A DNA stretch of 62,217 nt, counting the filler, from Choristocarpus tenellus KU-1152 (taxonomy: Eukaryota; Protista; Phaeophyceae), in assembly GCA_964200185.2 (NCBI GenBank). It is 11 parts of 11 records of this genome, joined end to end, with 100 filler letters (N's around TTAATTAATTAA, not from the genome) between each part and the next. Parts side by side here need not be neighbours in the genome. Positions count along the whole stretch, not along the records: positions 46,617 to 50,013 come from CAXNAD020020311.1; 10 more parts are not named here. One strand, written 5' to 3'. This document shows, piece after piece, positions 24,338 through 61,787 of the stretch; positions within the stretch are counted from its first letter, which is position 1, and each line of letters begins with the position of its first letter. Both the position numbers and the translations under genes were made by a program. The notes beneath the pieces are model-generated. The model searched no databases and had not been told where the DNA came from. It was given only the letters and a program-made list of their open reading frames with translations.

Positions 24338-24917
24338 TTGCTTAGGACGCAATAGAGGTCAAATCTGCCTACATCTCAGTTTGGCTCGAATCCAATCTAA
24401 TGTAGGAGGAATTTGTGACAAGGGGAACAAAGATTCAGAAGTTGGACTTGGCGGAGTGTCCATGTCATACAACCATAAAACAACAGAAGTCCAAGCACTT
24501 TGGGCATAAGCTTTCGAATCTTAAGCTAAAATGATACATCTGACTTCCTGTCATATAGCACTTGATTGTATTTATTTACAAAACTCCAAGCTCTCTGGAT
24601 CCCCCAGGTGATCTCAGCAGTGATTATAGCACTTCATCGCTGATGTAGCCCCCAAAAGTGAAAAACAACCCTAACAGTACGCTTGAAAGGTAAGGTCCAA
24701 TGCCTGTATCTGGGTGGTATCTGCAGCCTGATTAGGAGGCCGAAGACAGGTGATCTCCGTCTTGGGTGCTGACATGATCAGACCGAAATGTCTGACTACG
24801 TTTACAACCATTGCAATCATCCTGGCCAAACAGTCAAATCAACTGAGAGGTAGGCAGCGTCGCATTTTAACGATGTGGAGAACAGGCTAAAATATGCCGT
24901 CTTGTACATGGATTTAC

Positions 24918-25179
24918 GAGTGAGAGTATCTTAGAGGGTATGAGTTTTGTCCTTTTTGTCCATTTCGGGCTTGGCTTCCCATATATATATATATAATTAC
25001 ATTTTCCTACTCCATAATGTTTCGGAGCAGGTAAAATGTATGCGTTATGAAAAGGTGTGCCAGGAACAAAGATACTGACACTTCCTAACAAACACGATAG
25101 CAAAAATTATATCAAGATCGCAACATTGGATTTTGGTCCCGAAATGGACACGGCCCTACCCTCTAAGATAATTTGGCTC
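24918..25179. mobile_element. MITE family B (reverse orientation)
   Basis: GAGTGAGAGTATCTTAGAGGGTA ... TACCCTCTAAGATAATTTGGCTC; TSD TTAC. Confidence 0.85.
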
Positions 25180-25902
25180 TTACGGTGTCAGTTTGTGTGT
25201 GGAAAGGGGAAATGTTAATTTTGTAAACTGTTGTGCGTATTAAACCAATGAAATATAGTGTATCACACAAGGTAAGAAAGATGACTTAGAATGCAACAGG
25301 TTCCAAACCTGCCTACCTCTCAATTAGTTTGGTCAAAACCTCCTTCGGTCTTGAAGGCAGTGCCCATATGATCAGGATATAGCATACCCCACAATAGTTG
25401 CTCAAGTGTCCCACTCCCCAGTGTTCTCCTCCGAACTATCCAGTTGTTCGTGGCCACTCTCTTGATCACAACAAGGTCCTTTGGAGATAATCGGGTGAGA
25501 GGTGAACTTGATTACAGATTACTTAAGATTGCAGTGAAAAAGATTTTTAAGAGGATGAGAGGAAGACACATCCTTGTACCTGTGATATAGTGAACGAATT
25601 AGTGACGTAACAGGCAGCCATCTGTGTAATCCCTGCGAAGTTGTCTGTGGTGAATGAAAAATCTATTACAGATTTACAAGAAAACAAATTTGGCGTCAAT
25701 GGGGTTCGAACCATGGAATCCATGTATGGTACACACATCATCTAAGGAAGGGGAAGGTTCAAATATGATGAAATTATCATTCCATAATTGACAAGAGTGA
25801 GAGATGTGATGATACATAGAGAAGGAAGGCGAATATCCTACGCACGCTTTTTCCATCCATCGCCTCTAATGTCTACTAAAAGCTATCAAATTCTCGAGGC
25901 AG

Positions 25903-33100: not shown

Positions 33101-34048
33101 AGGTATACCTTGAAGGTAACCTATCTTGAAGAATCTGATATTCGTACAACATTTGTTTTTGACATGTTGAAGGTAGCATTTGCTTGAAGGAAATAGCTGG
33201 TGGTTTGAGGGGAACTTGCAACTCCCCCTCATTCACTTTACCACTACTTGTTCACTCTTTTCCTGAGTGATGTTCAGAGGGATTGCTCTCCCTCTTTTCT
33301 TGTCTCTCTCCTTTTCCTTGCCTCCTGTGGGTCTTCCCAATCCCCTTCATTACGAAGAACCTTTCGGCTTGTTTCAACCTGTTTCACGTTATTCTAAAAA
33401 TGTTACTAGCAGTAGCATTTTTGTCTTGTTATTCTATCATAAGGTAGCAGTATTTTTTCTAGTATAAATACTATTATTGTGTTTACTACTGATATCATTT
33501 CCCAAAATGACGAGTAGAACCTGCAGGAAAAAAAGCTAATTTATCACTCAAAAGTTGTAGGAAGTTTTAAGGGAAGGACAATGTGAACAACGGATACAAG
33601 AAAACTAACCCAAAAAGGAGATATGACGACCCCAAGCAGCATTTAGGAGGAAGTAGTGATGGTAGTGGTGTTGGTGGCTCGGGTGATTGTAGCTGCTGCT
33701 TTTGCATTATTTGCGTATTTATTTGCGATCGTCACAGCTTCCTGGGAATCGACTCTACCATGAAGTCCATTGCGTCTGCAGTCACGCACTCATCATCGTA
33801 CCACTTTTTATGTTGGTGGCCCTACCATGATAATAATAGTGCTACTCCAACCCTCCTCTGCAATGCCAACCTTCTCCAGCAAGGATGTCTTGGAGGCGAG
33901 TCTACCGGTTCTTCTCCTTCTGCCTACCTTGCTACCGTTTTCCAGTCGCAAGCTCCCCAAACATATCAACACCTTGGCGAGCTACTTATCCCCCATGCAT
34001 TATCTTCACTTAGAGTCGAACCAACTGAGAGGTAGGGCTGTATTTTAA

Positions 34049-34305
34049 GAGTCAAAGTATCTTAGAGGGTAGAGCCGCATCCATTTGGGGGCCAGAACCC
34101 AATGTTGCAATTTTGAAGTAATTTTGGCTATCGTGCTTGTTGGAAAATGTCAATATCCTTGTTCCGGACACACCTTTTCATAAGGTATAGCTATTACCTA
34201 CTCTGAAACATTTTGGAGTAGGAAAATATAAAAAAAATTCGTGGGAAGCTAAGCCCCAAACGAACAAACAGGGCAAAACCCGTACCCTCTAAGATACTTT
34301 CACTC
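34049..34305. mobile_element. MITE family B
   Basis: GAGTCAAAGTATCTTAGAGGGTA ... TACCCTCTAAGATACTTTCACTC; TSD TTAA. Confidence 0.88.
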
Positions 34306-35462
34306 TTAAGGGTCCCGAGAAAGGGTATAATGATAAATGCCATTTTGTACAACTATAGGAAGAGCCTTTAACAGCATAAACTACTTTTTAGGACGACGTT
34401 TTTTTAGGAGGCCCATTTTTTCCCACACCAAAAAGGCACAAATTTGTTCTCCACGAAAAATATTTAGTCATCCATACCTCCACATTACGCGAAATGTCAG
34501 CCATTATTACTTGAATCGAAAGTTATTTACCTGAATGAAAATCGAAATCTATCTGCTCACATATACATCCTACATACATTGACCTGTGTGCTCTATATGC
34601 TCTCTATCTTGTGCCTCAAAGCATTCCACACACACATGGATACCTTTCTGAAACAATAGTACTCACCTCTATCGAGTGTATCTTGCCTGTTACGGCACGG
34701 CTAATCTGCAAGTCATTCACCAGTGCTTCACTGCATGCAATATGACACCCCTTCACCACAACCAACCTGCCACCGTACAAGAGCACGATTCATTAAATCC
34801 CAGGTTTCAACAGACAACACCTCACTGTGAACGCTGGAGAAGGTATTGGAGGTAGCAGACTCAGTGGGAGCCACTGACCCTATCTGTGGGGCTCATATAG
34901 ATGACTTATGATAAGACTCTCCATGAGGCTCTTGTTGCCTTGCTAAAGGGGCGAGGAGAGTGACCACCAGTCATCCTACATTTTTTTTTTTATGGCTGCA
35001 TGCTGGCGATGCTTCATACAGGATAGGCCTAACCCCCCCAAACTTGCGGGCATCGGTGCTTGTACTTGTTGATATGTTTCCAGGCGAAGAAACCAATTTC
35101 ACACACCCCTTCAAAGTGTTTGGTGTTTGTGGCAGGGAAGGAGTGCGATTTCCTGAGGAGGTATGGGTTCTGCAAATTCGACCACTTCAAAGAAGGGGAG
35201 AGAGGAGGGAAAAGAGGCAAGGAGAGGAGGGAGAAAGGTAAAGGGGAAAAGACACAGGGAGTACCGACTAAACAGGACCCCTGAGGATACAGACCCATCC
35301 TCTGCAGGGGTGGGCCGGTAAAATAAGACCCATGGACGTCAATGCTACCCCAGCACGCACACCTTATAACAGGAATTCCAAGACCAGGGTCTTTACACCA
35401 GGCAATCAAAGATAGAGGGGGAGGGGAAGGTGTTGATAGAGACAGAATGGAAAGAGTGGTTT

Positions 35463-35649
35463 GACTCAACGTATCTGGGGGGGGGGTGGCGGCTGTCCAT
35501 TTCGGGTCAGTTCTTTCATGGTGAGATTTTTGTGTGATTTGGTTGCATACGTCGGATGGATAATGTAAGTGCACTTTTCCTGGTTAAGGCCCAAATGGAC
35601 ACCCTGGTGTAGATCCCCCCACCCCCCTCCCCCCCAGATACTTTGGGTC
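35463..35649. mobile_element. MITE family A, full length
   Basis: TIR GACTCAACGTATCTGGGGG / CCCCCAGATACTTTGGGTC; internal inverted GTCCATTT / AAATGGAC. Confidence 0.85.
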
Positions 35650-36010
35650 TTTGGGACCTCGGAAAAGTTAAAAAGAAAGGAAGAGATATCCACAAGTACA
35701 AAGCAGGAGTTGAAGAAGTTAGCAAGTAAGGGAGAATGGTTTGTCTTGACGAATGTGGGGGAGATTTGGGGCGATTGGTAGCGAGGCCGGAATGGAGATG
35801 GAGCCTTGAACATACGAAATGGGGCAGGATTGAAGGTCGTTCTAAAATAGGATAGGATTTACACAGATAAAAAGACTGTTACAAGTAGTTCAAATAGGGG
35901 TACTGCTAAGCGTGAGAGAGGAGGACAGGGTAGAAGGGAGGCTAGAGTATGGGAACCATAGGATTGCAGTCCATCACAGAGGGGCATTGTTATAAAAGGC
36001 GGTAGGGGAC

Positions 36011-37368
36011 GTGGTTCAAGGTAGGGCATTGATGTTCCCAAAAAGGGGGACAGCAAAGATTCCAGGACTTTATTTGTCCCCAATGGGGAAAGTTCAAGAA
36101 CCTATCAAAGTTAGGATTATTCATGATTTGTCATGTCAGCAAGAAAGTTGGAGTCCGAGTGTGAATGAAGAAAAGGACTTTGAGGATGCCCCCTCTGTGC
36201 ATTGCGGTACTGTGTTGGGAGATGTGATGAAGAGGATAGTAGACTTACGGAAGGAGTTCCCCAAGGCGAGAATTATGATTTGTAAGATAGGTGTTAAGGA
36301 TGCCTTTCGTCAGGAACCAATTGAACCAAAGGGAGAAGCTTGGTCTGTTGAAGACGTTGTGGTGATAGACTTCAGACTTCAATTTGGTCGGAGGAGTAGC
36401 CCAGGATAGTGGGACCTACTGGCAAGTGCTCTAGAAATCCCCCGTCTGCAGTCGTAATCCCTGAAGATCGGCTTTACTGCAAGTGTGAGACATTCCCCAC
36501 AGATAGATAAGAGGAATATATGTGAGTTGGATGAGAAATGGAAGGTTCCAAAAGATGGGGGGGCGGGGGCGGGGGGGGGTAGATAACCCTTTTTTTGGTA
36601 GGATATACGTGGATGACAGCATTTTGGTGGAGATCCAAAAGGTGGGAGGAGATTGAGGCTAGCAAACAAATTCCTCAGTGTCTGACCATATACAACTGCT
36701 AGGTTATAGGAAGGTAGAGGAACGCCCCATCTTGTCGACTAAAAGCTGACTGGGTGGCATACCGCACAGGTAGTAGTAGGGCGGAAGATAGATACTGAGG
36801 TCATGACAATTGAAGGGATTGCTAGAGTAGTGGCTAGAGTTGAGGACAGGAGCAAGGGTGTGGGACGTGTGAGTACTGATGGGGAAACCTTTTCGCGTAT
36901 CTTATATTTTGCAATCGGGACAATTTTTCCTTTGGTGGCTGGTGTAACTGTCAGGGTTACACCAGAAGGGGGGTTGGCTGAGGAGGATAGCCAATCGTAG
37001 TGGTCAGAGAGAACAGAGTGCAGGGGTGAGGGCAGGAGATGGGGAGTTCAGGATAGGTAGGGGATTCAAAGAAGACTTGTATTTATTGATGGAGGTGTGC
37101 AGTAGAGTGGGCACTGAAAAAAAAGGGGGAGACCTGACCTCACCTTTTCTGGGACTTGGGGTGAGACCACCAGTGACGATTTGGTTCTCAGATGCGTATT
37201 AAACAGCAGTAGGAGGTTACAATGTAGATACAGTTAAGTGGTGGAGGTGTGATTGCCTGTAGTGTGTGAAGAAGGATATTGCACGGAGTGTATTAAAAGA
37301 GGAGGGAAGGAAATATATCAATTACTGTATTGGAACTGTTGGGGATGGTAGTGAATGCGTGGCTATTG
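36011..37368 (+). mobile_element. Decayed RT-RNase H of a DIRS/Ngaro-type retrotransposon
   Basis: RIIHDLS, VKDAFRQ, DFRLQFGRRSSPG*W and IYVDDSILVE (~36603); RNase H-like WFSDA..AVGGY and VLELLGMVV; several stops and frameshifts. Confidence 0.8.
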
Positions 37369-42513: not shown

Positions 42514-42694
42514 GACCAAAGTATCTGGTTGGGGGGGGGGGGTCTACACCAGGGTCTCCATTTGGCCCATAACCAGGAAAAGTGCACTTCCGTTATCCAT
42601 CCGACGTATGGAACCAAATCACCAAAAAAATTGCGACATTAAAAAATTGTCCCTAAATGGACAGCCGTCACACCCCCCCCAGATACTTTGAGCC
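42514..42694. mobile_element. MITE family A (reverse orientation)
   Basis: GACCAAAGTATCTGG ... CCCAGATACTTTGAGCC. Confidence 0.85.
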
Positions 42695-42795
42695 AAATTT
42701 TTGATTAGGCAAAACTTACATTTTTTCTACCTGTTACGTGTATCACACGTACGGATGTATGTGAAAATCACAACAAACAACCATCGACCATCAAT

Positions 42796-42931
42796 GGTTT
42801 TGAGCAGTGTCTGATTGACCCGTGTATATTTAGATTCAGGAAAGATGGTATTGTCAAGATGATGCTCGCCGTCCATGTGGATGATATGATGGTTTTGGCG
42901 CCTTGTGATGATTGCAATGATCTTTGTGCTG
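42796..42931 (+). mobile_element. Copia reverse transcriptase fragment
   Basis: GFEQCLIDPCIFRF...MMLAVHVDDMMV. Confidence 0.8.
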
Positions 42932-43069: not shown

Positions 43070-45345
43070 TAGATTGTCACACAAGCAACCGTTGATATCT
43101 TAAAGATGGCACAAATAAAACAGTAAAACAACTGTTTGGATTCATCAATATAATTTGCAACAATCATTTCTGAAAAAAGCTTGAACATATTGCTGCTCAA
43201 GTCACCATTGGTATCTTGCGTGTAGTATCTTGGACTTGAACTCTTGGGCCCAAGTGAGTCGCAAGTTGCGAGTAGGGGGAAGATGACTTGTGGATTGGTG
43301 TACTCAGGTGTCTTGATTATCTTACTCTTGACTGTGCCTGTCTTCTATCCACGTAAGAACTAGGATGTATGACCTGAATAGATGGTATAACTTAGTTGTG
43401 TGGATGATCTTTGAAAACAGAGGGAACACAATACTGACAGTTGGTGATGGTCAACTTGGAGAGTTGTGATGTCCATGAACCTGATATGTCAGTCAAAGGG
43501 TTAGTCTATGACATGTATATGTCTTCACAGCTACCAGTGATACTCTCTTCACGCCCAGTAAAAGGATCATACCTAGCTGTAATACTCTATTTCAGTGTAC
43601 TTGATACGTTGCACAAAGCACACGTCTGCAGAATACTGTGATTACTCTGATAGCTTGTATGACGCTACAGAACTAGGCCTGTGACTTCTCTGCCTCAAGT
43701 GTGTGTTGTGGACCTTCTTGATCTCTTCCACCTTGATTTCTGACATCTTATGGGTATGGTACATTCAAAACAGTAAAAAACTGCTTGGGGTCCGTTCAAG
43801 CCACATCTGACTGAAGCATACGTTTAATGCGACAAGTTATTGTCGCTCCAGTACCATTGATATCTTATGGATATGGGGCATTCGAAATGATCAAACAGCG
43901 GTTTTGATTCCATCCAAGCAATGTGCAACAGAAACCTCTCTGAAATGATGCCAAAACTTTGCTGTTCAAGTCAACATTGATATCATAATTGATATGGTGG
44001 GCATTTGTAACAGTCGAACCACGGTTTCAGATCCATCCTAGTAATTTGTAAATGACACAATTAGTAAAATATTGCAGAGTGCTGTTGCCCAAGTCACCAT
44101 TGGTTTTGGTATCGCATGGATATGAGGTAAACGGTCAACCAGCGGAATCGAATCTATCCAAGCATCGTGCAACTGACAGTTTGGCGAGAAATAAAAATAT
44201 GATGCCGTTGGAGTCGTTGATATCTTATGGATACGGAGAACGAAAACGGTCCGACATAAGTTTTGGATCCACCCAATCATTACGTAACTGAAATTTCTGT
44301 AAAATGTTGCAAACTGTCACTCATGCTGTCATCGAGATCCTATACATTGTATATGGGGTACTTGTATGTGTAACAGTCAAACAACGGTTCTAGATCCATC
44401 CAAGCAATGTGAAACTGACGCTCCTATAAAGTCCTACAACCTGTTGCCACTCCAGTCACCCTCGATATCTTACGATTACGGGGCATGTACAACAACAAAA
44501 AAACAGCATCGGATCCGAGTCCAAGTAAACGAGAGGTACGCAGAGATACATTTTAAAGGTGCCACCAATAGATGTGTAAAATTCGGCTTTTTTTACAATT
44601 AAGTATAATAGGGTATTTTCCGAGTTGTCTCCAAACGTTTAAAACAATCGAGAAATCAACCCTCTCAAGTCAAACGTAGCGCTTCATGCATAGAAATTTG
44701 GGTGAATTGCGTAAGATTGAGAAACTGGCTAATAATAAAAACATCAAGAAAAGTGGGTACCTCTCGTTTACTTTGGCTCATCCATCCGACCTAAATGTAT
44801 CCGACAGTTTGTGTGTATGTGCAAAATTTTCCTCTCAAGTCACCATTGGCATCTTACGGATATGGAGCGTGTGAAGTATTGAAACAACGATTTTGGATCC
44901 AAACGAGAAAAGGGCAATCGACACTCTCGTGACAATTCAAACATTCTTGTTGCTCAAGTCACAGTTGGTATCTTGTGGATATGAGGCATGCAAGACCATC
45001 AGACAACGTTTTCGGACCCATCCACCAATGTGCAACTGACACTTCCTGAAATGCTGTAATACGTTGCTGCTCATGTCACGATCGGTATCTTTTGTGGTAC
45101 GTGAAACGGCCAAACAACGGTTTGGATGTATCCAAGAAGGATATAACTGACTCTTACGTGAACTGTTGCCTAACGTTGCCACTCAAGTCACCATGGATAT
45201 CTTACGGATATGTCGTGGGTAAAACACCAAAAACAACGGTTTTTGATACATTGGAGCAGTATGTATCTCACGACTTGTTGTGATAAATTGCAAAATGTTG
45301 CCAGTCAAAACATTTTGATTCTTATGGATACGAGTACATAGTATC
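43070..45345. repeat. Degenerate tandem array with ~120-bp unit, roughly 13-15 units; interrupted at ~43230-43730 and by a MITE
   Basis: The core CAAGTCACCATTG.TATCTTA.GGATATGG...CAAACAACGGTTTTGGATCCATCCAAGCAATGTGCAACTGA recurs near 43198, 43850, 43968, 44091, 44212, 44328, 44453, 44837, 44955, 45073, 45185 and 45303. Confidence 0.85.
44517..44779. mobile_element. MITE family C inserted in the satellite
   Basis: GAGTCCAAGTAAACGAGAGGTAC ... GTACCTCTCGTTTACTTTGGCTC; TSD ATCC. Confidence 0.88.
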
Positions 45346-46516: not shown

Positions 46517-46779
46517 NNNNNNNNNNNNNNNNNNNNNNNNNNNNNNNNNNNNNNNNNNNNTTAATTAATTAANNNNNNNNNNNNNNNNNNNNNNNNNNNN
46601 NNNNNNNNNNNNNNNNCCCCCCCAGATACTTTGACCCCCAAGGCACCTTTGCCTCATCGTCGCCTGTGGAATTGATAGGGTAGATAAATGTGCGCAATCA
46701 AGGCGTTTATTGTGGTATGGCCTTACACGACGAACTGAAATGCGATGGATAGGCGAAGTCATGAACTAATACAAGTTGA

Positions 46780-49410
46780 GTACCTTGTCGCTGATGGTGT
46801 ATTGCTTGGTAGGAGGACCCTCTGCTGCAGACTCTCCTGGTGAATTGTCGGCGTAGCGGTCTATCCCGAACCTGTCCTTCTCTTTCAGGTCCTTCATAAC
46901 CTGAACTGCGACCTGCAGGACGGCCCCCTTGATGAGTACATCCTTGGTATGCATTCGTCTCAGGTATGCCAACTGCACCCTCCAGGGTTACACTTCCCAA
47001 TCCTCCTCCGCCTTCGCGGCAGACGCCGGGTCTGGATCGCCGACTCCTGGTTTATTTTTCTTCCCCTTTCCCCTTGTCTTCTTCTTTCCTTTGTCTTGGT
47101 CGACTGGGGGCCGTTTGTTCCGGACGCCCCTATGGGTGAGGGAGAACTGTCGTGGAGAAGCACATGGGAGCTGGAACGGTGAGTGACATGGATGACACGG
47201 GTGTCTGTCTTGCGGGGTATGAACTAGGTGGTAAACATTGCGGTTGTTGCAGGGTCAGGAGGGGGGTATACGCATATACATCCATACGCTACTTCAATCG
47301 TCACGGTCAAAATCGACTTACCCATTCCTCTGGAATGTCTCCGTCCCGACAACGTACGTTAACGCAAGCGCGTCAGTAGGCAGTTTTCTGACTGCCTTAT
47401 CTGAGAAGACGTGCGCAGCCACTTCGACAATGTCGCGCCATCGATGACCTTGGGGAGTCTCCCCTCTCAGGATGGATAGTCCGACTCCAGCGAGAACATC
47501 AGTGCACATTCTAGCGAAATACTGCTCCTTGACCTCGTTCGTGAGCTGCATATACATCAAATGTGCGACAGAGTGCGGTTAGGATACCCGTACAGAATGA
47601 GCTTCGAGGATGTCGAGGAATTAAAATCGGCAGTGTATATGCCAGGGAGGGAAAAGCCGGGTATGCGCGTAGCGCATCGAGACCTTACGGGCATGGGGAT
47701 CGCTGGAAATGGGTCACTCTTCCGTTGGTCAGAACACGTCAAAACATCCAATTACTGTCTGCCCTATGTCAAGTGGAGACAAAATGGTTGGGAACGTTTA
47801 TCCCACCTTTGTCCTGCACATGTGATTGAATCCCCCACTGTTCTTAAGGGAATCCATGGCAGCGTCTGGGTTGGCATTCCAGAGCACAGTGAACATGTGA
47901 ACCACTCTGAAGTCGAATTTTTCCTGGTCGGATGCGCGTTAGGTGAGTGGAGGATAAGTTAATATGATCAGGACAGAAGAATGTGGGAGTGGGTGCGTGT
48001 TTGTTGGTTGATGGTGTGTTCATCATATGGTCGATAGCGAAACACATGTCTACATCGCCAATTCAAACTCACAGTATTGGAAGGCAGGGTTACTACTGTG
48101 TTGTTGTTGGACTGTTGGTGATGGGGGGTATTTCATGTACTAATAATAAAACGGGTGCATCGCGCGCACATTCGATCCCTCGCGCTTCTTGTGCTCTCTC
48201 CACACGCCGAGAAGGATCTCCTCCAGTCCTTTTGTCTCTGTTGGAGCATCGCGAGGGGAAGAGAGGGGTGGGGTATGTTAGACCAACGACACGGAATTAA
48301 CATGGATATATTAGACGAAAGGTACGCGGTGCTTGACAATCCTTTTACGAAAGGATTGTCAAGGGTGCCGTGAGAATCTCACCTTCTCTCGCGCATATGT
48401 AGACAAGGGTGGCGATTGCGTTGAAGAATTGGACGGAGGTCTGGTCTGTGAGTCTATTCGCCCCGGCTTCCATATGTGTGTCCTCCCAAGCTTCTTTAAG
48501 GAATGCCTTTATCTTGGCAGCTACCCTCCTCTTAATAGTCAGCTGTAACGCGGTGTCATCACTCCGGAAGTCTACGTCACCTGGACAGTACTGGTTGCAC
48601 TTGGTGACCAATGTCGCCATGCGCGCGCGACGATCAGGATCCTCCTCTATGTCATTGACAAAAGGGCGGGGCCTGTCGCAACCGAAGTCGCGCCTATACT
48701 CCAGGATAGCGGCGACCCAGGACACCATCCAGTGGAAAATGTCGAGGATGTTGGGCACATGCGACCTACTGGCCGCCACACTCTCTCCTATCGAAATGGA
48801 TTCAGCCTTTTCGCGGTTGCAGTGAGGATAGATCTTCCATATGAAGGTCCTGTTATCGTCTCCCTGGAGGTTCTCTCCGATGTCCGAGGCCCATCTCGCT
48901 GTGACATGTGGCGGGAGGTTGATGCCACCTGGGATATTTTCCTCTTGCGCGACGCAATGGATTGTCCTCAGCACCATTAAGCGGTGCTGTCCGTTCAGGC
49001 AAAATAAGAGGTTGTCGTCGTCATCTATATCCCTCTCGCCGCCATTCTCGTCTACGTCGAGGTTGCCGTTGGTGATGTAGGTTGCAAGTAGATCACCATC
49101 AGGCACATCAGAGGGTACGTTCGCCCTGCGTATGTCAGCTTTCATGTCGCTTATGGTCTTCCATCTGTAGCACATGGGAAAAGGCCGTCCACTCAGGATA
49201 CCTGCAAGCCTATCGACAGCGACAACTGGATCCGGTCCTAGCTTGGAGAACATGGACTCCACTCGATCGGTGTCCAGGAGGTTAGCATTATACCTCTGTG
49301 TCATGTAGGCAGATGTTGCAAGGTCCATCGTGCAGGTGGCGCTGATGTTGGACGTTACGATGTATGTCGTCCTTAGGTCTTCAGTAGTTTTCGGGCCTCC
49401 GGTGGGCTGT
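46780..49410 (-). CDS. Spliced gene for a ParB/Sulfiredoxin-fold (DGQHR-like) protein. Exons 49410-48383, 48237-48170, 47923-47807, 47545-47322, plus an uncertain K-rich exon ~47145-46780; start codon uncertain
   Basis: A 327-aa ORF contains LLFCLNGQHRLMVLR. Three downstream GT-AG junctions are phase-consistent. The last segment has a phase problem and an in-frame TAA (EDWEV*PWRVQL), so the gene may be decaying. Confidence 0.65.
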
Positions 49411-51286
49411 CTGTGAGGACAGAGGGGAATGTTGGGACAATGGTATCAGCCAAGATCAATGATGTCCAGAAAGGGGTGGATGCGACGGTTAGCCGAGCGC
49501 ATGAGGGGTATCTTCATATGAACAGCGGTGGACCATGTGATTCATGATGACGCGGGTTCGGCACGGAGTGCGGTGTTCGTGTCCGTGAATGGGCTATGCA
49601 AGGGAGATATGAAAAGAGCGTAGCGATTGCGTGGAAATGGGGACGGCGTAACGCTTTCCTACCAGGAACCTATTTACCAATAAATATGAAACTGTTAACG
49701 CGGTCGCCCTGGGATGGATATGAATATCAATAAAACGTAACAATATCTGACGCAACCTGGAGTGAACCTACGCGCAGATCAAGATCAGATATAGCTGGGC
49801 CAATCATGCACAGGTTTGCGCTTGACACTAGGCTGATAATAATGAATGAATTTAATGTGTTCTGACCAACGGCAAAGGCGATGAAATAAAGGAGCGCGGC
49901 TATATGGTCGAGGCCGTGTGTGTCGATTTGAACTTGTAAAAACCCGAGCAGATAAACATAACGTCTAACTGAGAAGGTGATATAAGAAGATGAAAGGAAT
50001 TTACGTGCTGCCCNNNNNNNNNNNNNNNNNNNNNNNNNNNNNNNNNNNNNNNNNNNNTTAATTAATTAANNNNNNNNNNNNNNNNNNNNNNNNNNNNNNN
50101 NNNNNNNNNNNNNGCTTGACTAAAGTTATAGGGTTCGCCAAAGCAGCACATGTATATTGGGTCGACCCTATGGTTGCGTGGGTACTATTCGATTGTTGTG
50201 GTGTCCACTGTCTGTTGTAGTACTCCAAGTACTGCATAGTGATATTTCTCCGCCTCCTTGTTCTGTCACTGTCATCTTTGAGCATCTCCCTTCATGGCAT
50301 CTCACCAGACAAGCTGTATGGGTATCACCACAAAACGCTCAGGGCACTCCATAGCCTATGACATGCAATTCTGACCAACTTCCTGGTCTCTTACCTGGAT
50401 GCACAGCGATCTTTTATTGGGATAAAGATCCACCTGTGTTGAGTAGTTGCGTGCAGGAAAGGCTCGTGGCCAGAAACTGCTTCTGGGTTGCATTGGTGAA
50501 CATACGCTGTTTATCAATTATCCGCTGGGGCGTTCTATGTCTTAGCCATCCATTATTTCTGGCGTACGACCAAAGACTGACCATCATGTCGCTATGGACG
50601 TTACTACTCTGTATTGTACCAAAACTATAGATAAACGTACATTAAAGTGTGTTATCTGCTTGTATCGGGGCACACAACGTGAGTATAAGACTATATATTG
50701 CGACAAACAGAGGCTGGCAGGACTATGTTCTGCCTTGGACATCAATGAAAACGACATATATTTGGTCAAGTTTAGCTTGCTGAGGTTCTCTCTCCCCCTC
50801 TTTCTCTCAGTTGCCGGTGAAAAGGAGTATGCGTAACTCTGTGTGTGATGTGGCCCTCTAGGTGGTGCTTTTCCGATGCCTGGGACACCTGCTTCACCAA
50901 GATCAATATTCACATCGAAAGCGGGTGTTGTCATTTTTGGCGTGCAGTCTTGTAAGGAAATCACTGCCAAAATCCCAGCTCCCTGCCCGTGTGTAACATG
51001 CCCAGCCAGGCATGGCCCAGATGAAACGTGCAGAGAGGACAGCACATTGTGGTGTAGGGTGATGTTACTGATGTAACAGATTGGGAAAGTATAGTGAATT
51101 GTACAATCCGTAATGGTTTTCACATCAACTTCTAACAAATGAAACCAGATTTCCATGAGAAGCATAGATTTGATGCACGCGAACACGTTCGATTACTATG
51201 GGTGGAATGATGTACGTCCATCATTCCTTACATTTACAGTTACTATTGTGTGTTACTTGTATAGGAAATATATCCAAAAACAAATT

Positions 51287-51366
51287 TGACCCGGGTGGGA
51301 TTCGAACCCACGCTTTTTCACACTGCGACCTTAACACAGCTCCTTAGACCACTCGGGCACCTGGTC
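51287..51366 (-). tRNA. trnL-AAG: tRNA-Leu(AAG)
   Basis: GACCAGGTGCCCGAGTGGTCTAAGGAG-CTGTG TTAAGGT CGCAG-variable arm-GTGGGTTCGAATCCCAC-CCGGGTCA; downstream TTTTT terminator; one acceptor-stem mismatch. Confidence 0.85.
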
Positions 51367-52405: not shown

Positions 52406-52440
52406 CTCTATCTAGAGAGGTCTAGTTCTGTTCGCAAAAA

Positions 52441-52704
52441 GGGTTAAAGTATCTGGGGGGGGCAGTGGCGGCTGTCCATTTGGGACCAATTTTTTCATGT
52501 CGCGATTTTTGTGTGATTTGGTTGCATATGTCGGATGGATAATGTAAATACACTTTTCCTGGTTATGGTCCAAATGGACAATCTGGTGTAGACCCACCCT
52601 GCGCCCCACACCCCACCCNNNNNNNNNNATGTTTCTGGCATTTGTCGTTGTCGGTGTGCCTATCCCCCCCCCCCCCCCCCCCCCCCCCCCAGATACTTTG
52701 GGTC
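52441..52704. mobile_element. MITE family A (contains a small N gap)
   Basis: Same TIR and internal sequence as 35463-35649. Confidence 0.8.
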
Positions 52705-54635: not shown

Positions 54636-57535
54636 AACGGGAACTACAGTACTGATCTCCACACGGACCGAGCCATCAGCATCATTCGGGATCACTCTCC
54701 CGGGGGCTACCTCGAGAATTCGCCGATGATGTTGTACCTGGCGTATCAGAGCCCGCACTATCCGCTGGAGACGGACGAATCGATTGACTACGTTGAGGAT
54801 GGAATTATGGACATTTTGGACAGCATTCATGACACTGACCGCAAAAAGGTGACAGGTTTGCTACGGCGAGAGGCGTTTGTTGGCTGCATTGTGTTTATTG
54901 TCGCTTGAGGTGCTGTGTCACGCCGGGTGTGCTTGTTTGTGTGTGTGTGTGCGTTCGTGCGTGCGTGCGCTTGTTTTTTTTAATTTTTTTTCGTGGTGTT
55001 TTTTTGTGTCCGATGAAAAATAAAGTAGGGTGTGAAAGAGGCTTTTTACAGCGGGTCGTTGGCTCTTGAAAAATACCCCTTTTTTTATCATTGTATTTTC
55101 TTGTGTAGCGAAGGGGGGGCGGCTGTTGAGCATCGACGAAGGCGATCGTCTTAGCCCCTTCACTTCCGCACCCTCTCATCGTACTGTGTCTTGGGAAGGT
55201 CGCTACTGTTGTTTTTTGGTTGGGTGGTCTTGTGTGTGTTTTCTGAGTTTTCTGAGTTTTTAGCGTCAGATTAGATCTTTTCTGTTTTCTTGTTGGATGG
55301 AGTGTTCTCTTGCACTGATGGTGTCCATGTGGTTGAATGTTTCGAACTGTGTCCAGAAGATGCTATTGCTTTTCTCGCTATCGTGCAAGAGTCTGTGGTG
55401 TCATTGGTGATCTGCTGGGGAGGATGTAGATCAACTGATCGTTTGTGCTCCTCTTTTCTCCTTGTCCCACCTATTGTGTTCTTTTTTGAGTGTATTGACA
55501 ATTTCTTTTGAAATATCTGATCTCATTTTTTTCACTCTATTTTTTTTTTTTTAATCTCTGGGCTCTTATTTTTTTTTTTTGTCATGTGCCACGCGTTAGG
55601 GATATGCTTTGATCTCTTAGTTCCAACAAGAATATATTTTTAGTAATATATGCTTATATTCTGAATGGTGCTCTCCTATTCATTTTTAATTAAAAAAAAT
55701 AATTTAGCAGGTGTTAGGGATTCGCAGCTATCACCTCGTGTGAAAAAGAGAAAAATAATTTTTAGATGATCGTGTATGTACATATATTGCGAATGGTGCT
55801 CTCCTACTCACTTTTTTATTTTTTTGCTCTTCTCTTTTTCTTTTTAAAAACAAAAAAAATTAGGTTGGTATGATGGTGTGGGGGTTAGACAAGGAGATTG
55901 GTCGCCTCTTGGATGAGCTGGATCAAAGTGGAATGATGAGCAACAGTATCATCGCCTTCGCTTCAGATAACGGAGGGTGTCCTCTGCATGGGAATTCAAA
56001 CTATCCTCTCCGGGGTACAAAGGTAAGAGTACTGTTCTTGTACTGGTCGTAATCGTCCAGAGTTTTCTGCGGTGAGATGTGAGGTAGTAGGGGAGGAATG
56101 GAGTAACCTGTGGGACTGTTGTCCTTTCTTTTGAGTTTTCACGGAGGAGAAGGCGTATTTTGTGGTTTTATGTTTTGGTCCCGTCACAGTTTTTTTGTTG
56201 TTGTACACAGCTGTCTGTTTCGCTTCGGTTGCGGTCTGATAGCATGGTTTTTGGTTGTGTTTATCTCCGGCGATGTTTGTTTTTGTTGGATTTTTTTGTT
56301 CTTTTTTGACCCACCTTCAACACAGCAACTTGACACGGCACATAGCATAGACGATGTAACAATGTTGTCGCAACAACTCAACACAGCACGTAACACAGAC
56401 GATGCAACAGTGTAACACAACAACTCAACACGACACGCAACACAGATGATGTAATGATGTAACACAGCAGCTCAACACAGCACGCAACACAGACGATGCA
56501 ACAATTTAACACGACCAAGTATCATAGAAAACACACCAGTACAAACACAGGCTCACACAAATACAACAACTCAGCACCAACCTCGTTGCTACTTATTAAA
56601 AAAAAAAAATCTGTCATGCCATATCCAGCATTACCTCTGGGAAGGAGGATCCCGTGCCCGGGCGATCTTCTTCAGCAGCAATTTATCCAAGACACGGCGA
56701 GGTGCTCAATACGATGGATTGTTCCATGTGACAGACTGGTTGCCTACCATCCTTGAAGGTGTTGTAGATAGCAGGAGAGAGCAGAATGAGCATGGTGTAT
56801 CAAAGGCTTGGGAGGCAGACAAGGAGGAGTTGGATGGTGTCAGTCAACTGAAGGCGTTGTTGGACACAGAAGGCGTGGTTGAAGACCCAAGGTACTGACC
56901 TGCTGTCGTTGTAGGTTGGGGTGATCTAACTTTTTTGAGGGGGTTGGGAGGTGTATGGATTTGGGAAGATCGACTCTGTGGATTTTGGAGGAGAGGGGTG
57001 AGGTTTGTAGGCTCTTGAGATGTACATTGATCTTCAAGGGTTGTGGAAGATTATTTTTGATTTGTCTGGTTCTAACGTGGGCTAGGGTACGTTTTTTTTA
57101 TATTTAAAAAACATTTATTTTTTTTGCTTTTGTTTTTGTATGGTGACCTAAAATGAATCCTGTGTGTCTTTTGTCAGTGAGGGAATCTTTGTCAGAACAC
57201 TAGGCTGATTTTGTTTGAAGTGGTTGTTTTTGGGGGGTTGGGTTGCACGTAAGAGTACATAGGGTTAGGGTTGAAAGGATCGTGTGTTGGTTCATTTCCT
57301 TTTTTTTTTCTTTGAGGTTATGGTTTGTCAGTCGTGGATGAGTTGAGTTGGTGGAATAATTCCCATTTTGTGTTTTTGTTGTAGTTCTCATATGAAGGGT
57401 TTGTTACACTATTTTTTATTTATTTATTTTTTCCCAAGTGTGATGATGCACGGCAGAGGCTGTTTTTCAAACGAGAATATGTGCTTTCCGTAGGAGAGAG
57501 CACTTCCTCGAACCAAAGGAGGAGGAGTGGATGTT

Positions 57536-57572
<37 letters not shown>

Positions 57573-58656
57573 TAGTTGTACACACACACGTGCGTGCAGT
57601 GTGATTATTCATTCCTTGTAACATTTTTGTTTTTGGCACTTTGTGGAGAGTAGAATGGAGTTATATGATAGTGTGGCATTTCAAAGTGTGGCATGGATGT
57701 GACATGTTGTCTCCGTGTAAGGGGTTACACTTTGATGTTACCAACGGCTAGAGGCACAAGAGCTCACTCGTCTCTTTCCTACCCCCCGCCTCCCACACTC
57801 TTTTCCCCCCTGCTACATTGTTCCCCTGCCCACTTACCTCGCTGGAATGGAAGGTTGGAGGTATTGTACAACATAATGATGGAGGAAGACACAGAGACAG
57901 GACTCAATACAATTCGTGGGGTATGTCTGTGATGGTTATTGTGTCCACAGTACATAACAATATTATTATTTTTATTATACTGTCCTTTTTTGGAATATGG
58001 TGGAGGGTCAGGGTGTGTACAAGAATGTAGTCAATGAATTCACTCAAGAGGAGAAAATTGTGACCAAGAATAGAAGAAAGTTCCTTACCTATGTACATGG
58101 AGCGTCTGTACCTCACCAATTGAATTGAGAACGTGTAGCCCTAACCCTTTCCCCCCCCCCCCCCCTCACCCCCAATTGCTCAGCACATTCTAGTACTAAG
58201 TGCAAGAAGAATTGACAAGGTAGGCATAAAGTGGAGTTAGGGATAGTATCTTGAGGAGGCTTGAAATGTTCACGTTTGATCTGCCTCAACTTGAACCTGT
58301 GGTGATTCTCCTGCTGTATTCTCTTTCCTGTGGGATAAATGCCCGCCGCCACCCTTCCACCCTGCCCTCCCTCCCACAATGTCTATGCCCCATTGTCTCT
58401 CAACACTCATCATCAGGCACTTCGGGTGGGTGATTGGAAGTTTATATCTGATGAGTACTGCCAGGTGTGGCTCGATATTAGTGGGAGATATGAACACACA
58501 GAATACCTTGAGGCTTGCAACAGTATGGGGGGCTCTGTGGATTCCTGCGGGGTAGCTAGCAACAGATATATCGCTGGCGATTACCTGTTTAACGTGAAAG
58601 ATGATCCGTATGAGTTTGTGGATTTGTACGATGCACACCCTGAGATAGTGGAGCAG
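54636..58656 (+). CDS. Formylglycine-dependent sulfatase (arylsulfatase B-like), C-terminal half. Exons 54636-54848, 55864-56022, 56629-56891, 57854-57920, 58417-58656
   Basis: YSTDL, LYLAYQSPHYPL, SDNGG..SNYPLRGTK, LWEGG, LFHVTDWLPT, LDGVSQ, ALRVGDWK, LFNVKDDPYE; all junctions are phase-consistent. The catalytic CxPxR exon is not found in this contig. Confidence 0.92.
56318..56510. repeat. AC-rich ~47-bp minisatellite, about 4 copies, intronic
   Basis: CAACTCAACACAGCACG.AACACAGACGATGCAACA.TGTAACACAA recurs. Confidence 0.8.
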
Positions 58657-60407
58657 GTGAGAGCTGAATCGAACGCGGTTTGAGATTTTCAGGGTATGCT
58701 GCTGCTGATGGGGGGAAGGAAGTAAAGAGTTGTGAAATTGTTCTTGGTGCACAGGTCTTGCGGACTTTACAACCTGTCAGCTGAGTTTTTTTCGAGGGCG
58801 TTTCCTCGGGGTGGAGGACAAAATGCCGGAAGAGTTAAATTCCTCTGGGTGGGATTGTATTGCAGAGGACAATGCCTCCTCTTGTGTTGTTTGATACTCT
58901 ACTCCTCCACCCCAGGAGCACACCAAACGGACTGGAGATCTGTAGCAAGAAGAATAACTCGATCTGGACTTGAATGCTTCTATAATCCTACACGCCATGC
59001 AGTGCTGACTGGTGCTTTCCTTCAGAGCTGCGGGCATGTACCAACCGCATCATTGCACCTAACAACTTCCCCCTCCCCTGCCTCCCCTGCCCCTCTCGAC
59101 TCCTGTGGTGTTGTCTCATCGATTACATGCCTTTGAAACCGACTGGAAATAACCGATTGACTTTTGGGGGGGGGGGTTGATCCACCCAGCTCTCGTCCCG
59201 ACTGTCGGACCTGGCATCTGAGGGGATCAAGAGGGTCTGGGAGGGGGGCAGACCGGTGCTTTCAACGTCGCGTTGGGCGAACTTTGGTTGCATATCACCG
59301 TTTAGATTAAGAGGGGGGGGCGACGGCATTCGCATCATCGATTATCGTGATTAGCTGTGGTGATTGAGAGCATGNNNNNNNNNNNNNNNNNNNNNNNNNN
59401 NNNNNNNNNNNNNNNNNNTTAATTAATTAANNNNNNNNNNNNNNNNNNNNNNNNNNNNNNNNNNNNNNNNNNNNCCTCCCCCCCCCCCAAGATACCTTGA
59501 CCCACATGTTATACAGTAAGTCAACGCAGTCATAGGGAGTGAACTTCAGGAGGAGCTACCGCTCTGTTCAGCTCCCAACTGCGTACTGAAAAAAAAAGAA
59601 TTGAATCACATTCATTGCACTGCATACGGGAAAACAGGGCTGCTCACCTCACTCCAAGACATGTTTTGAAGGTTTCCCAATATTTGGTAGGACTCGCTGT
59701 TGGTGGTGGTGGAGACAGAAGAGGAAGGATCTGGATCCTAGCCACCACCCCAGTCTAGCACTGATTCCTGTTGGGGGATTTGCCCCTCTCTCGGACAAAC
59801 ATGTCTAGATACAAAACGAAGAAGGTTGCCAAAATACCCTGTATCTACTATATAGCGGCTAATCGGCCATACATAATGTTCAGGAAGCCAGAAAGAAGAC
59901 TGAATCCCAGGCAAGGGAAGGGGTATTCACCCCATTCCCAGCAGAAGGTCATGCCCTCATTTCAACGATGGTCAGAGTCACAGTACCAACCTGGTAGGGA
60001 CCCCACCCCTTAAGTGAAATCCGTATAAGTCGCCTTCTCACCCCAACCAAATTTGGTCGGGGCAATCCAACAGTGAGGATATTGTTCAAATAGTTAAGGA
60101 GTGTTGACAAGATGCTGGACAAGAGGTACCTTAGCAAGAACATCAAATAATAATAATGCTACGTCACACTGTTGTCTTGGATGCCTGGCAAACCACACGG
60201 CTCAATATGAGGGTATTGCTCCCAAGATAGGCAGGTTGGCGGGTTGTAAAGGCTTCCATGACACGATACCTTCAACCATCCTGAGGAGCAGGGACTTGGA
60301 CCTGCAGGATCTGTGCCGTTTATAGAGGTAAGTAAGGGAGCTGTAGTAGCGGAAAATGGCGTCTGGATCTGATGTGAGATGATCCAGCAATTCTCATGAT
60401 AGTTTTA

Positions 60408-60594
60408 GGCTCAAAGTATCCGGGGGGTGGGGTGGGGGGCTACACCAAGGTAGGGTGTCCATTTGGGCGCTGACCAGGAGAATTGCACNNNNNNNNNNTT
60501 ACCCACCAGGCACCCAAATCCACCCAAAACCCCCGACATGAAAAAAGGGCCCCTGAAGGGCCGGCCGCCCCCCCCCCCCCAGATACTTTGAGCC
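60408..60594. mobile_element. MITE family A (reverse orientation)
   Basis: GGCTCAAAGTATCCGGGGG ... CCCCAGATACTTTGAGCC; TSD TTTA. Confidence 0.85.
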
Positions 60595-60762
60595 TTTACG
60601 ATCTGGGTCTAGCACAGTGGGAGCAAAGAAGACACAAAGAGTCCCACGGTGTTTTAGAGTCCTCAGGACTCCTACAACTACTAGGTGTCTGTATTTTGGG
60701 CATTACGTACAGTTCTAGAAAAACACGATGATGTTTGTGTTAAGTGTGAAGATTAATAACAA

Positions 60763-60844
60763 CGACGATGGCAGGACTCGAACCTGCGCGCGGGGTCCGC
60801 AATTGATTTCTAGTCAATCCCCCTAACCACTCGGGCACGTCGTC
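60763..60844 (-). tRNA. trnS-AGA: tRNA-Ser(AGA)
   Basis: GACGACGTGCCCGAGTGGTTAGGGGG-ATTGA CTAGAAA TCAAT-TGCGGACCCCGCGC-GCAGGTTCGAGTCCTGC-CATCGTCG; long variable arm; one C-A acceptor mismatch. Confidence 0.85.
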
Positions 60845-60887
60845 GTGCTAATATTGTACTCTAGCCAGAATATAATACATATCTGAG

Positions 60888-61460: not shown

Positions 61461-61676
61461 GAGCCAAAGTATCTCAGAGGGTAGAGCCGCGCCCACTTGG
61501 GGGCCCAACGTCAATGTTGCGATTTTGATGTAATTTTGGATATCATGTTTGTTAGGAAGTGTCAAAATCAATGTTCCGGACACACCTTTTCAGGACTTAC
61601 ACATTTTACCTAGGGGAAGTCAAGGTTTAAATGGACAAACAGGGCAAAACTCGTACCCTCTAAGATACTTTCACTC
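61461..61676. mobile_element. MITE family B
   Basis: GAGCCAAAGTATCTCAGAGGGTA ... TACCCTCTAAGATACTTTCACTC; TSD TCGG. Confidence 0.88.
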
Positions 61677-61787
61677 TCGGATGAAAATTTATCAGGTAGA
61701 TTTCTATTCACTGCATGGTGCATGGGCACTGTGAGGGGAAAAGGCTCCCTGGCTGGAATGGGGCCTTTATTGGAGGAGTGAAAGTTC

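What the first reader, a model, noticed from the sequence alone, without database searches (positions are those of the whole stretch)
46780..49410. Spliced eukaryotic gene with a ParB/DGQHR-type catalytic motif: candidate cargo of an undescribed large mobile element
Seen: a ~1-kb exon in a visibly more GC-rich contig encodes LLDTDRVESMF...LLFCLNGQHRLMVLR...FIWKIY, followed by helical exons and a K-rich NLS-like stretch (KGKKKTRGKGKKNK) with one in-frame stop. Known: the hhhDGxHR motif marks the ParB/Srx nucleotide-binding fold (ParB CTPases, DndB/DGQHR proteins), which is mainly prokaryotic. From recall, fungal DUF3723 proteins carried by Starship giant transposons have a similar CLHGxHR motif. 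Inference: a nuclear ParB-like protein that is either horizontally acquired and intronised, or an accessory gene of a large algal mobile element or endogenous virus. This is the best candidate for a novel system here.
Basis: partly seen in the sequence, partly recalled or inferred. Interest (0 to 1): 0.8.

Follow-up and report, generated by a model that had tools for sequence, protein, structure and literature searches.

The report
Decayed ParB-like algal transposon accessory gene
This is a broken copy of a many-copy, intron-containing gene, likely of a brown alga, whose protein likely has a bacterial-type ParB nucleotide-binding fold and likely rides in a large DNA transposon where it would bind the element's own repeats, a design already reported in algae but not for this sequence family.

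Summary
A 3.4-kb contig, richer in GC and CpG than the rest of the window, carries a minus-strand gene of at least five exons (about 600 codons) with CLNGQHR in a 1-kb exon. The whole contig is a divergent multi-copy repeat in three public runs (1,342 contigs in one). Contigs of one run lack introns 1, 3 and 4 exactly, and differences show coding constraint (dN/dS about 0.4). The only clear protein relative is from the brown alga Choristocarpus tenellus. The ParB/Srx fold is likely but unproven: nothing aligns beyond the motif, and only a DUF3723-guided model matched ParB/Srx structures (Z 4-6). No transposase, element ends, viral gene, methyltransferase or oxygenase motif is in view. Best reading: accessory ParB-like gene of a giant algal DNA transposon, a kind already described (Ectocarpus Sola1-1, red-algal PAG3) and noted by this scan on other DNA. 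New here: an unrelated sequence family, no visible enzyme partner, a DUF3723-like motif, and no CpG loss in a CpG-depleted genome.

The parts
46617..50013 (.). Whole contig: one decayed copy of a multi-copy, GC- and CpG-rich repeat; both ends are assembly breaks
48383..49406 (-). Exon 1 of the model (1,024 nt; acceptor at 49406 or 49410; start codon unresolved, first in-frame ATG at 49328): predicted ParB/Srx-like domain followed by a helical region
   Evidence: helical half 42% identical to Choristocarpus tenellus CAM9531802.1
48981..49010 (-). LLFCLNGQHR, the ParB/Srx-type nucleotide-binding signature; the one listed difference inside it (48987) is synonymous and is carried by 14 contigs of run X1
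48238..48382 (-). Intron 1 (145 nt), removed exactly in 3 contigs of run X3
48332..48363 (.). Perfect 14-bp-arm hairpin in intron 1, the longest in the window; 0 of 100 shuffles of the contig give an arm of 14
48170..48237 (-). Exon 2 (68 nt)
47924..48169 (-). Intron 2 (246 nt), predicted only; 6 of the 12 listed indels fall here
47807..47923 (-). Exon 3 (117 nt)
47546..47806 (-). Intron 3 (261 nt), absent from 2 contigs of run X3
47722..47773 (+). 52-bp non-coding motif (16-bp exact core), inverted copy of 49821-49872; candidate binding site, untested
47322..47545 (-). Exon 4 (224 nt here; one base short near 47333, where 13 contigs of X1 and 7 of X2 carry one more base)
47147..47321 (-). Intron 4 (175 nt), absent from contigs of run X3, one of them using a second acceptor at 47129
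46784..47146 (-). Exon 5: K-rich NLS-like stretch (47092-47051), in-frame stop (46990-46988), short helical tail; ends at a possible donor (46783) or reads on to a stop at 46766
49802..50013 (.). Last unit of an upstream tandem array (unit about 233 bp in other copies); holds the 52-bp motif at 49821-49872
   Evidence: head-to-tail joints in X1, X2 and X3
46617..46637 (.). End of an unrelated ~190-bp MITE-like repeat inserted downstream; its outer end faces the gene, so it is not the end of the gene's own element
   Evidence: joined to other places of the repeat in other copies

Best explanation
The contig is a decayed copy of a multi-copy spliced gene that likely serves as the accessory gene of a large cut-and-paste DNA transposon of a brown alga, and its protein is predicted to use a ParB/Srx-type nucleotide-binding domain to load onto repeats in the element's own DNA. 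Shown: exon structure, many divergent copies, coding constraint, decay of this copy, an upstream tandem array, a motif shared between that array and intron 3, a hairpin in intron 1. Inferred, in falling order of confidence: brown-algal host; ParB/Srx fold; residence in a DNA transposon; nuclear import through the K-rich stretch; binding of a nucleoside triphosphate through G-Q-H-R; recognition of the element's repeats, which would hold element DNA together for transposition or shield it from host silencing.
For: 1,342, 1,036 and 70 contigs of runs X1-X3 lie on the 3.4 kb, introns and upstream DNA included; in X1 98 are 99% alike or more, 311 are 95-99%, 547 are 90-95%, 386 under 90%. Introns 1, 3 and 4 are missing at the predicted borders in X3 contigs. 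18 of 38 listed coding differences are synonymous against 27% expected, P 0.005, and 1 of 12 listed indels is exonic, P 0.002. Nested MITE ends sit at different places in different copies and an upstream tandem array is present, features reported for giant algal DNA transposons (PMC12477816, passages and supplement rows; bioRxiv 10.1101/2025.02.11.637652, section 8). All named Atlas neighbours are DUF3723, ParB_N, DUF6551 or GmrSD_N at 0.92-0.93. The DUF3723-guided model (pLDDT 62) has six ParB/Srx-fold chains as its top six among 48,161 (Z 3.9-5.7). The equivalent motif binds nucleotide phosphates in sulfiredoxin (PMC4619093, passages).
Against: No transposase, terminal repeat or target-site duplication can be seen; the contig is 3.4 kb and no genome is held, so dispersed versus clustered copies is untested. 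Profiles of DUF3723 and of viral ParB-like sets score the protein no better than shuffles that keep the motif (156 of 500, 357 of 500, 159 of 500; 16, 12 and 12 of 40; 68-141 of 300; best small cluster 11 of 300). The unguided model failed (pLDDT 34); the guided one is partly circular, had no control, and gave no Foldseek match at E 0.001 or better. Atlas recognition 2239 is under the 2300 mark and only 3-4 of ten named hits share a family. Unlike PAG3 the array has no inverted-repeat units (fold energy -11.9 against -17.8 for shuffles), only one perfect palindrome exists in the contig, and no methyltransferase or oxygenase motif is present. In X3 alone 7 of 12 listed indels are exonic, two of them frame-breaking.
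Confidence: 0.55

Rival explanations
1. A host multigene family expanded by tandem or segmental duplication with birth and death; the protein is ParB/Srx-like but not tied to a transposon.
For: Ordinary GT-AG introns; a relative in Choristocarpus tenellus whose similarity stops at the exon-1 donor (shared border inferred); divergent intron-less or spliced forms in X3; no transposase seen.
Against: Introns and upstream DNA are repeated along with exons at 85-99%; composition departs from host contigs even in non-coding parts (CpG o/e 1.01-1.13 against 0.54); no relative in any other organism among 1.84 billion representatives; broken copies are common.
Confidence: 0.2
2. Transposon cargo, but the domain works as a small-molecule or protein-directed enzyme like sulfiredoxin, SerK or SbnI, or the motif sits in another fold, and the repeats are not its target.
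For: The best structural matches include sulfiredoxins, SerK and SbnI as well as ParB-like chains; there is no sequence signal outside the motif; the FxxxN motif of DGQHR domains is absent.
Against: K-rich NLS-like stretch; tandem array, shared motif and hairpin next to and inside the gene, as in described ParB accessory genes.
Confidence: 0.15
3. An intronised gene of an endogenous giant virus, or a recent horizontal gain from bacteria or phage.
For: Atlas neighbours include Nucleocytoviricota, phage and bacterial clusters; distinct composition; brown algal genomes hold much inserted viral DNA (bioRxiv 10.1101/2024.02.19.579948, passages).
Against: No relative in viral contigs, phages (best E 5), plasmids, PHROGs or 1.84 billion representatives; four spliceosomal introns; the same paper reports two Discosporangiales genomes without viral regions (passage), the order of the one relative (order recalled).
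Confidence: 0.1

Closest known systems
ParB-like/DNA-methyltransferase accessory gene of Sola1-1_Ec32, Ectocarpus (PMC12477816; abstract, passages, section 5 part 1, rows of supplement 1)
   Same: Brown-algal repeat family with a ParB-like accessory gene; nested insertions and broken genes are common in these giant families.
   Different: That protein has 1,104 aa with an N4C/N6A methyltransferase domain and lies opposite a Sola transposase; here about 600 codons show no such motif and no transposase is in view. Its sequence was in a FASTA supplement that could not be read, and no such protein came up.
Plavaka accessory gene PAG3 of red algae (bioRxiv 10.1101/2025.02.11.637652; passages and section 8)
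   Same: N-terminal ParB-like domain detected only weakly, adjacent tandem array, proposed to bind its own element.
   Different: PAG3 adds a putative 2OG oxygenase and its array is of inverted repeats; here the array units are not palindromic and no oxygenase motif is seen. Supplements closed, so no direct comparison.
DUF3723 (PF12520), conserved cargo of fungal Starships (bioRxiv 10.1101/2021.12.13.472469; passages)
   Same: C-L-x-G-x-H-R motif, similar order of strands and helices in a forced alignment, helical C-terminal part, carriage on a large mobile element.
   Different: No Pfam hit; invariant H and WW of DUF3723 are missing; no similarity beyond the motif; host is not a fungus.
DGQHR/DndB and GmrS domains, sulfiredoxin (PMC4619093; passages)
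   Same: G-Q-H-R signature after hydrophobic residues; an upstream QR pair.
   Different: N in place of D, no FxxxN, no NCBIfam, Pfam or PADLOC hit; spliced and nuclear-looking.

Membership tests
ParB/Srx superfamily | Nucleotide-binding signature (GxxR type; DGQHR, DGQQR, FGGCHR variants) after a hydrophobic strand | tested here: met
   CLNGQHR at 49001-48981; 26 of 200,000 shuffles; motif definitions from PMC4619093 passages
ParB/Srx superfamily | ParB/Srx fold | tested here: inconclusive
   Unguided model pLDDT 34; DUF3723-guided model pLDDT 62, top six VIA-align hits ParB/Srx at Z 3.9-5.7, rmsd 4.0-6.7 over 82-94 residues; guided, no control
ParB/Srx superfamily | NTP binding or hydrolysis | not testable with these tools
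   needs assay
DGQHR/DndB domain (TIGR03187, PF14072) | DGQHR pentapeptide, QR pair and FxxxN motif; family HMM hit | tested here: not met
   NGQHR and QR present, FxxxN absent; no hit at E 10
DUF3723 (PF12520) | Pfam hit above cut-off; invariant CLHGxHR and WW | tested here: not met
   No hit; N for H and no WW
DUF3723 (PF12520) | Remote profile similarity outside the motif | tested here: inconclusive
   No signal, but the same methods also link DUF3723 to viral ParB-like sets by the motif only
ParB accessory genes of giant algal DNA transposons (PAG3, Sola1-1_Ec32) | Part of a multi-copy repeat family | tested here: met
   1,342 contigs of X1 and 1,036 of X2 at 85-99% over all 30 bins
ParB accessory genes of giant algal DNA transposons (PAG3, Sola1-1_Ec32) | Tandem array next to the gene | tested here: met
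   Head-to-tail joints at 50010 in all three runs, unit about 233 bp
ParB accessory genes of giant algal DNA transposons (PAG3, Sola1-1_Ec32) | Array made of inverted repeats | tested here: not met
   The one unit in view has no perfect 8-bp-arm palindrome and folds less well than shuffles; one hairpin in intron 1
ParB accessory genes of giant algal DNA transposons (PAG3, Sola1-1_Ec32) | Fused DNA-modifying domain (amino-methyltransferase or 2OG oxygenase) | tested here: inconclusive
   No such motif or Pfam hit in exons 1-5, but the gene may continue beyond the contig end
ParB accessory genes of giant algal DNA transposons (PAG3, Sola1-1_Ec32) | Linked DDE transposase, terminal inverted repeats, target-site duplication | not testable with these tools
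   3.4-kb contig; no genome held
Starship | Tyrosine-recombinase captain at the element's 5' end | not testable with these tools
   Flanks not available
Endogenous giant virus | Viral relatives and viral neighbour genes | tested here: inconclusive
   No viral relative found; neighbours not available

The most novel reading that the evidence does not exclude
A stand-alone ParB-fold protein of the DUF3723 motif type, without a fused DNA-modifying enzyme, is carried by a giant brown-algal transposon, loads in a nucleotide-dependent way on the element's own repeats and keeps it free of host CpG methylation (its non-coding DNA keeps CpG at o/e 1.0-1.1 while LINE- and DIRS-like fragments in the window are at 0.37 and 0.47). 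Starship DUF3723 would then be the fungal counterpart, making ParB-type self-recognition a shared device of giant eukaryotic mobile elements.
Probability: 0.15. Interest if true: 0.8.

Novelty: new variant of a known kind. Interest (0 to 1): 0.48.

Why it matters
ParB-like accessory genes of eukaryotic transposons were described only recently and none has been tested in the papers read here. This family adds a sequence-unrelated member with no visible enzyme partner, comes with short candidate target sites, and keeps its CpGs in a CpG-poor genome, so self-binding and anti-silencing can be tested directly. It also gives a lead that the Starship cargo domain DUF3723 begins with a ParB/Srx fold; no paper in the library holds both terms, and the four papers holding 'Starship' and 'ParB' are, by their listing, on other subjects.

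Tried and rejected
No whole genome held. Family libraries gave no hit for exon 1: Pfam, PADLOC, NCBIfam, PHROGs; weak hits for P0001 and exon 4 there were taken as chance. Word-based protein searches found nothing at 201-641 aa (2,824 candidates) or 30-189 aa (91 candidates), and only P0001 itself with a two-sequence profile (7,050 candidates); proteins over 641 aa were covered only. The second hit (P0002, a repeat protein, 29 residues matched) was rejected as chance. PDB sequence searches were blank or E 0.3 and worse. Related-locus scans of viral and metagenome contigs found none. No RNA holder was listed; the kind of X1-X3 is not on record. Profile tests outside the motif were negative; sets were motif-selected and thinned: 37 of 85 fungal and 65 of 92 viral frames, 182 frames of 217 viral loci. 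Single-sequence AlphaFold failed. Foldseek gave no match at E 0.001. Rfam: two matches far below cut-off. The MITE-like end at 46617 was considered as the element's own end and rejected (orientation; same end at nine other window places). A CpG-decay test did not discriminate: 8 of 35 listed transitions at CpG against 26% expected in the element, 47 of 253 against 16% in other repeats. A palindrome array like those in earlier findings was sought and not found. CTTGACA occurs 4 times (2 of 1,000 shuffles), but 18 different 7-mers reach 4 against about 9 in shuffles, so it is a weak lead. No complex prediction was run.

Full report
Setting. The window is a string of 11 short contigs joined by linkers, so neighbouring contigs are not true flanks, and no whole genome is held. 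The finding fills one contig, 46617-50013. Its GC (0.511) and CpG o/e (0.90) are the highest of the 11; 0 of 65 overlapping 3.4-kb windows elsewhere reach either value, and the CpG excess is strongest in non-coding DNA (introns 1.01, upstream 1.13, rest of window 0.54). The host is inferred to be a brown alga or close relative: the only clear protein relative is CAM9531802.1 of Choristocarpus tenellus.

Gene model. A 366-codon open frame on the minus strand holds all peptides quoted for the big exon. From splice signals I modelled exons 49406-48383, 48237-48170, 47923-47807, 47545-47322 and 47146-46784, all GT-AG, introns 145-261 nt; exons 1-4 give 477 open codons. Exon 4 is one base short of exon 5's phase and exon 5 holds a TAA, so this copy is a pseudogene. 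The start and the 3' end are unresolved: the gene may stop at 46766 or splice on at 46783 into DNA cut off by a MITE-like insertion and the contig end.

Independent support. Three public runs of one coded organism and one study hold 0.34, 0.23 and 0.07 of the contig's words; their kind is not on record. In run X3, 3 contigs skip exactly intron 1. Joints 47544-47840 with 34 letters between and 47131-47334 with 28 letters between equal, by hand count, the exon remainders with introns 3 and 4 gone; a second intron-3 joint is one base short of that count, and a second intron-4 joint uses an acceptor at 47129. These are spliced RNA or intron-less copies; the alternative acceptor and the much lower number of contigs in X3 (70 against over 1,000) favour RNA, but this is inference. 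Intron 2 has no listed joint. One more base at 47333 in 13 contigs of X1 and 7 of X2 keeps the frame, and a loose end of 2 X3 contigs reads a sense codon at the stop (read by hand).

Copy number and constraint. 1,342 contigs of X1 and 1,036 of X2 lie on the 3.4 kb, over all 30 bins, mostly 85-95% alike; up to 24 contigs show one variant at a single place; summed depth in X1 is 370-2,800 against 9.5-21 for the 8 long pieces listed. The tool warns that this is no copy number; I read it as tens of divergent copies. At many listed places no contig has the window's letter, so this very copy is probably absent from those runs; I could not lay a host contig as a control. Of the best-supported differences (40 of 585 rows shown, 40 of 345; 57 distinct, 38 coding) 18 are synonymous against 27% expected (P 0.005, dN/dS about 0.4), and 1 of 12 listed indels (of 28) is exonic (P 0.002). 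Against this, in X3 alone at 80% likeness 7 of 12 listed indels are exonic: two compensating pairs, the frame-keeping base, and two frame breaks, one of them within the motif. So the family was under coding constraint and many copies have decayed.

Non-coding anatomy. Joints from 50010 back to 49802-49814 in all three runs show an upstream tandem array of about 233 bp per unit. A 52-bp motif with a 16-bp exact core occurs in that unit and, inverted, in intron 3 (E 2e-4). Intron 1 holds a perfect hairpin with 14-bp arms, reached by 0 of 100 shuffles. The array unit itself is not palindromic. The contig's left end is one end of a ~190-bp MITE-like repeat found across the window; the same end joins other positions of the repeat in other copies, which marks nested insertions.

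The protein. No Pfam, PADLOC, NCBIfam, PHROGs or PDB sequence hit for exon 1. phmmer over 1.84 billion representatives gave 2 hits: the Choristocarpus protein (E 7e-22, 42%, helical half only, similarity ending at the exon-1 donor) and a chance repeat protein. The motif is rare by chance (26 of 200,000 shuffles) and matches the nucleotide-binding signature of the ParB/Srx fold as described in PMC4619093 (passages); of the three DGQHR-domain marks, QR is present, D is N and FxxxN is absent. The ESM Atlas puts DUF3723, ParB_N, DUF6551 and GmrSD_N clusters nearest among named ones (0.92-0.93), with warning signs of weak evidence. To test further I fished fungal DUF3723 exons (4 of 4 tested hit PF12520) and viral G-Q-H-R proteins by motif. 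Their profiles score the query no better than shuffles that keep the motif, though these methods also fail to link DUF3723 to the viral sets beyond the motif. AlphaFold without alignment failed. With 37 DUF3723 segments as alignment the model reached pLDDT 62, with 70-86 in several core blocks, and its six best matches among 48,161 chains are Atu1540, two sulfiredoxins, SerK, PadC and a pNOB8-like ParB-N domain (Z 5.7-3.9); Foldseek lists many ParB/Srx entries but none at E 0.001. This says at least as much about DUF3723 as about the query, so the fold is likely, not shown. Exons 2-5 show no methyltransferase, oxygenase or Walker motif.

Mechanism. I commit to a transposon accessory protein (0.55): imported through the K-rich stretch, binding a nucleoside triphosphate at G-Q-H-R, loading on repeats of its own element, and thereby pairing element DNA or shielding it from silencing. 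Only the anatomy is shown. The retention of CpG fits escape from methylation (DNMT1 is reported in Discosporangium and outgroups but not other brown algae; bioRxiv 10.1101/2024.02.19.579948, passage), but recent arrival explains it equally, and my CpG-decay test did not discriminate. Rivals: host gene family (0.2), cargo with another biochemical role or fold (0.15), viral or bacterial gain (0.1).

Comparison with what is known. An earlier finding of this scan led me to PMC12477816, which reports giant KDZ, EnSpm and Sola-1 transposons in Ectocarpus with nested insertions and accessory genes, one a 1,104-aa ParB-like plus methyltransferase protein (abstract, passages, section 5 part 1, rows of supplement 1; its FASTA supplements could not be read). 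bioRxiv 10.1101/2025.02.11.637652 reports PAG3, ParB-like plus oxygenase, beside tandem arrays of inverted repeats (passages and section 8; supplements closed). bioRxiv 10.1101/2021.12.13.472469 describes DUF3723 as Starship cargo and relates it to TIGR02168, not ParB, in the passages seen. Seven earlier notes of this scan describe ParB-plus-palindrome transposons in other genomes, none sequence-similar to this one; they are unchecked and not counted as support. Searches for DUF3723 with ParB, Plavaka with ParB (only the red-algal paper) and ParB-like cargo with CTP found nothing further. The locus works like these accessory genes; membership cannot be filed until a transposase and ends are seen.

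Verdict. Observation confirmed, interpretation partly supported. A real, previously uncatalogued sequence family, most likely a new variant of a recently described kind. Interest 0.48.

Noticed in passing
L001-L113 (metagenome loci); alignments A4, A5: The N-terminal part of Starship cargo DUF3723 looks ParB/Srx-like: invariant C-L-H-G-x-H-R, and a model guided by 37 such segments matches only ParB/Srx chains at the top. Not folded on its own.
   Followed up: partly
window 35460-35652, 42516-42703, 52435-52615, 60412-60595; ends also near 2732, 4230, 4528, 12047, 43046, 46620: A ~190-bp MITE-like family with inverted ends and inner poly-G tracts at which several contigs break.
   Followed up: partly
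window 12917-13172, 24914-25182, 34046-34309, 61461-61677: A second ~265-bp repeat family, about 81% alike, with inverted ends (34045-34071 and 34283-34309).
   Followed up: no
window outside 46617-50013: CpG depletion (o/e 0.54), strongest in retroelement-like fragments, suggests a host with past or present CpG methylation.
   Followed up: partly
window 23306-23981, 35996-36409, 42709-42930: Fragments that read by eye like LINE, DIRS/Ngaro and Copia reverse-transcriptase regions (labels recalled); no Pfam hit at E 0.05.
   Followed up: partly
window 6705-7130, 26694-27032, 58339-58683: Host exons: FYVE finger (E 1e-16), glycosyltransferase family 64 (E 3e-5), arylsulfatase C-terminal region (below cut-off).
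   Followed up: yes
window 51287-51366 (-), 60762-60845 (-): tRNA-Leu(AAG) and tRNA-Ser(AGA).
   Followed up: no
window 5006-5792: A long degenerate inverted repeat, 65% over about 830 bp.
   Followed up: no
window 43857-45250 and 56319-56512: Degenerate tandem-like repeats (about 110-120 bp spacing) and a 47-bp tandem array of 4 copies.
   Followed up: no
window 47634-47853: One X2 contig shows a 230-bp head-to-tail duplication here, nearly the size of the upstream unit and covering the same 52-bp motif.
   Followed up: no
Atlas result: An unnamed 141-aa eukaryotic cluster, commonest taxon Cnidaria, shares the most features (155 of 256) with the motif-bearing domain; a lead for animal relatives.
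   Followed up: no
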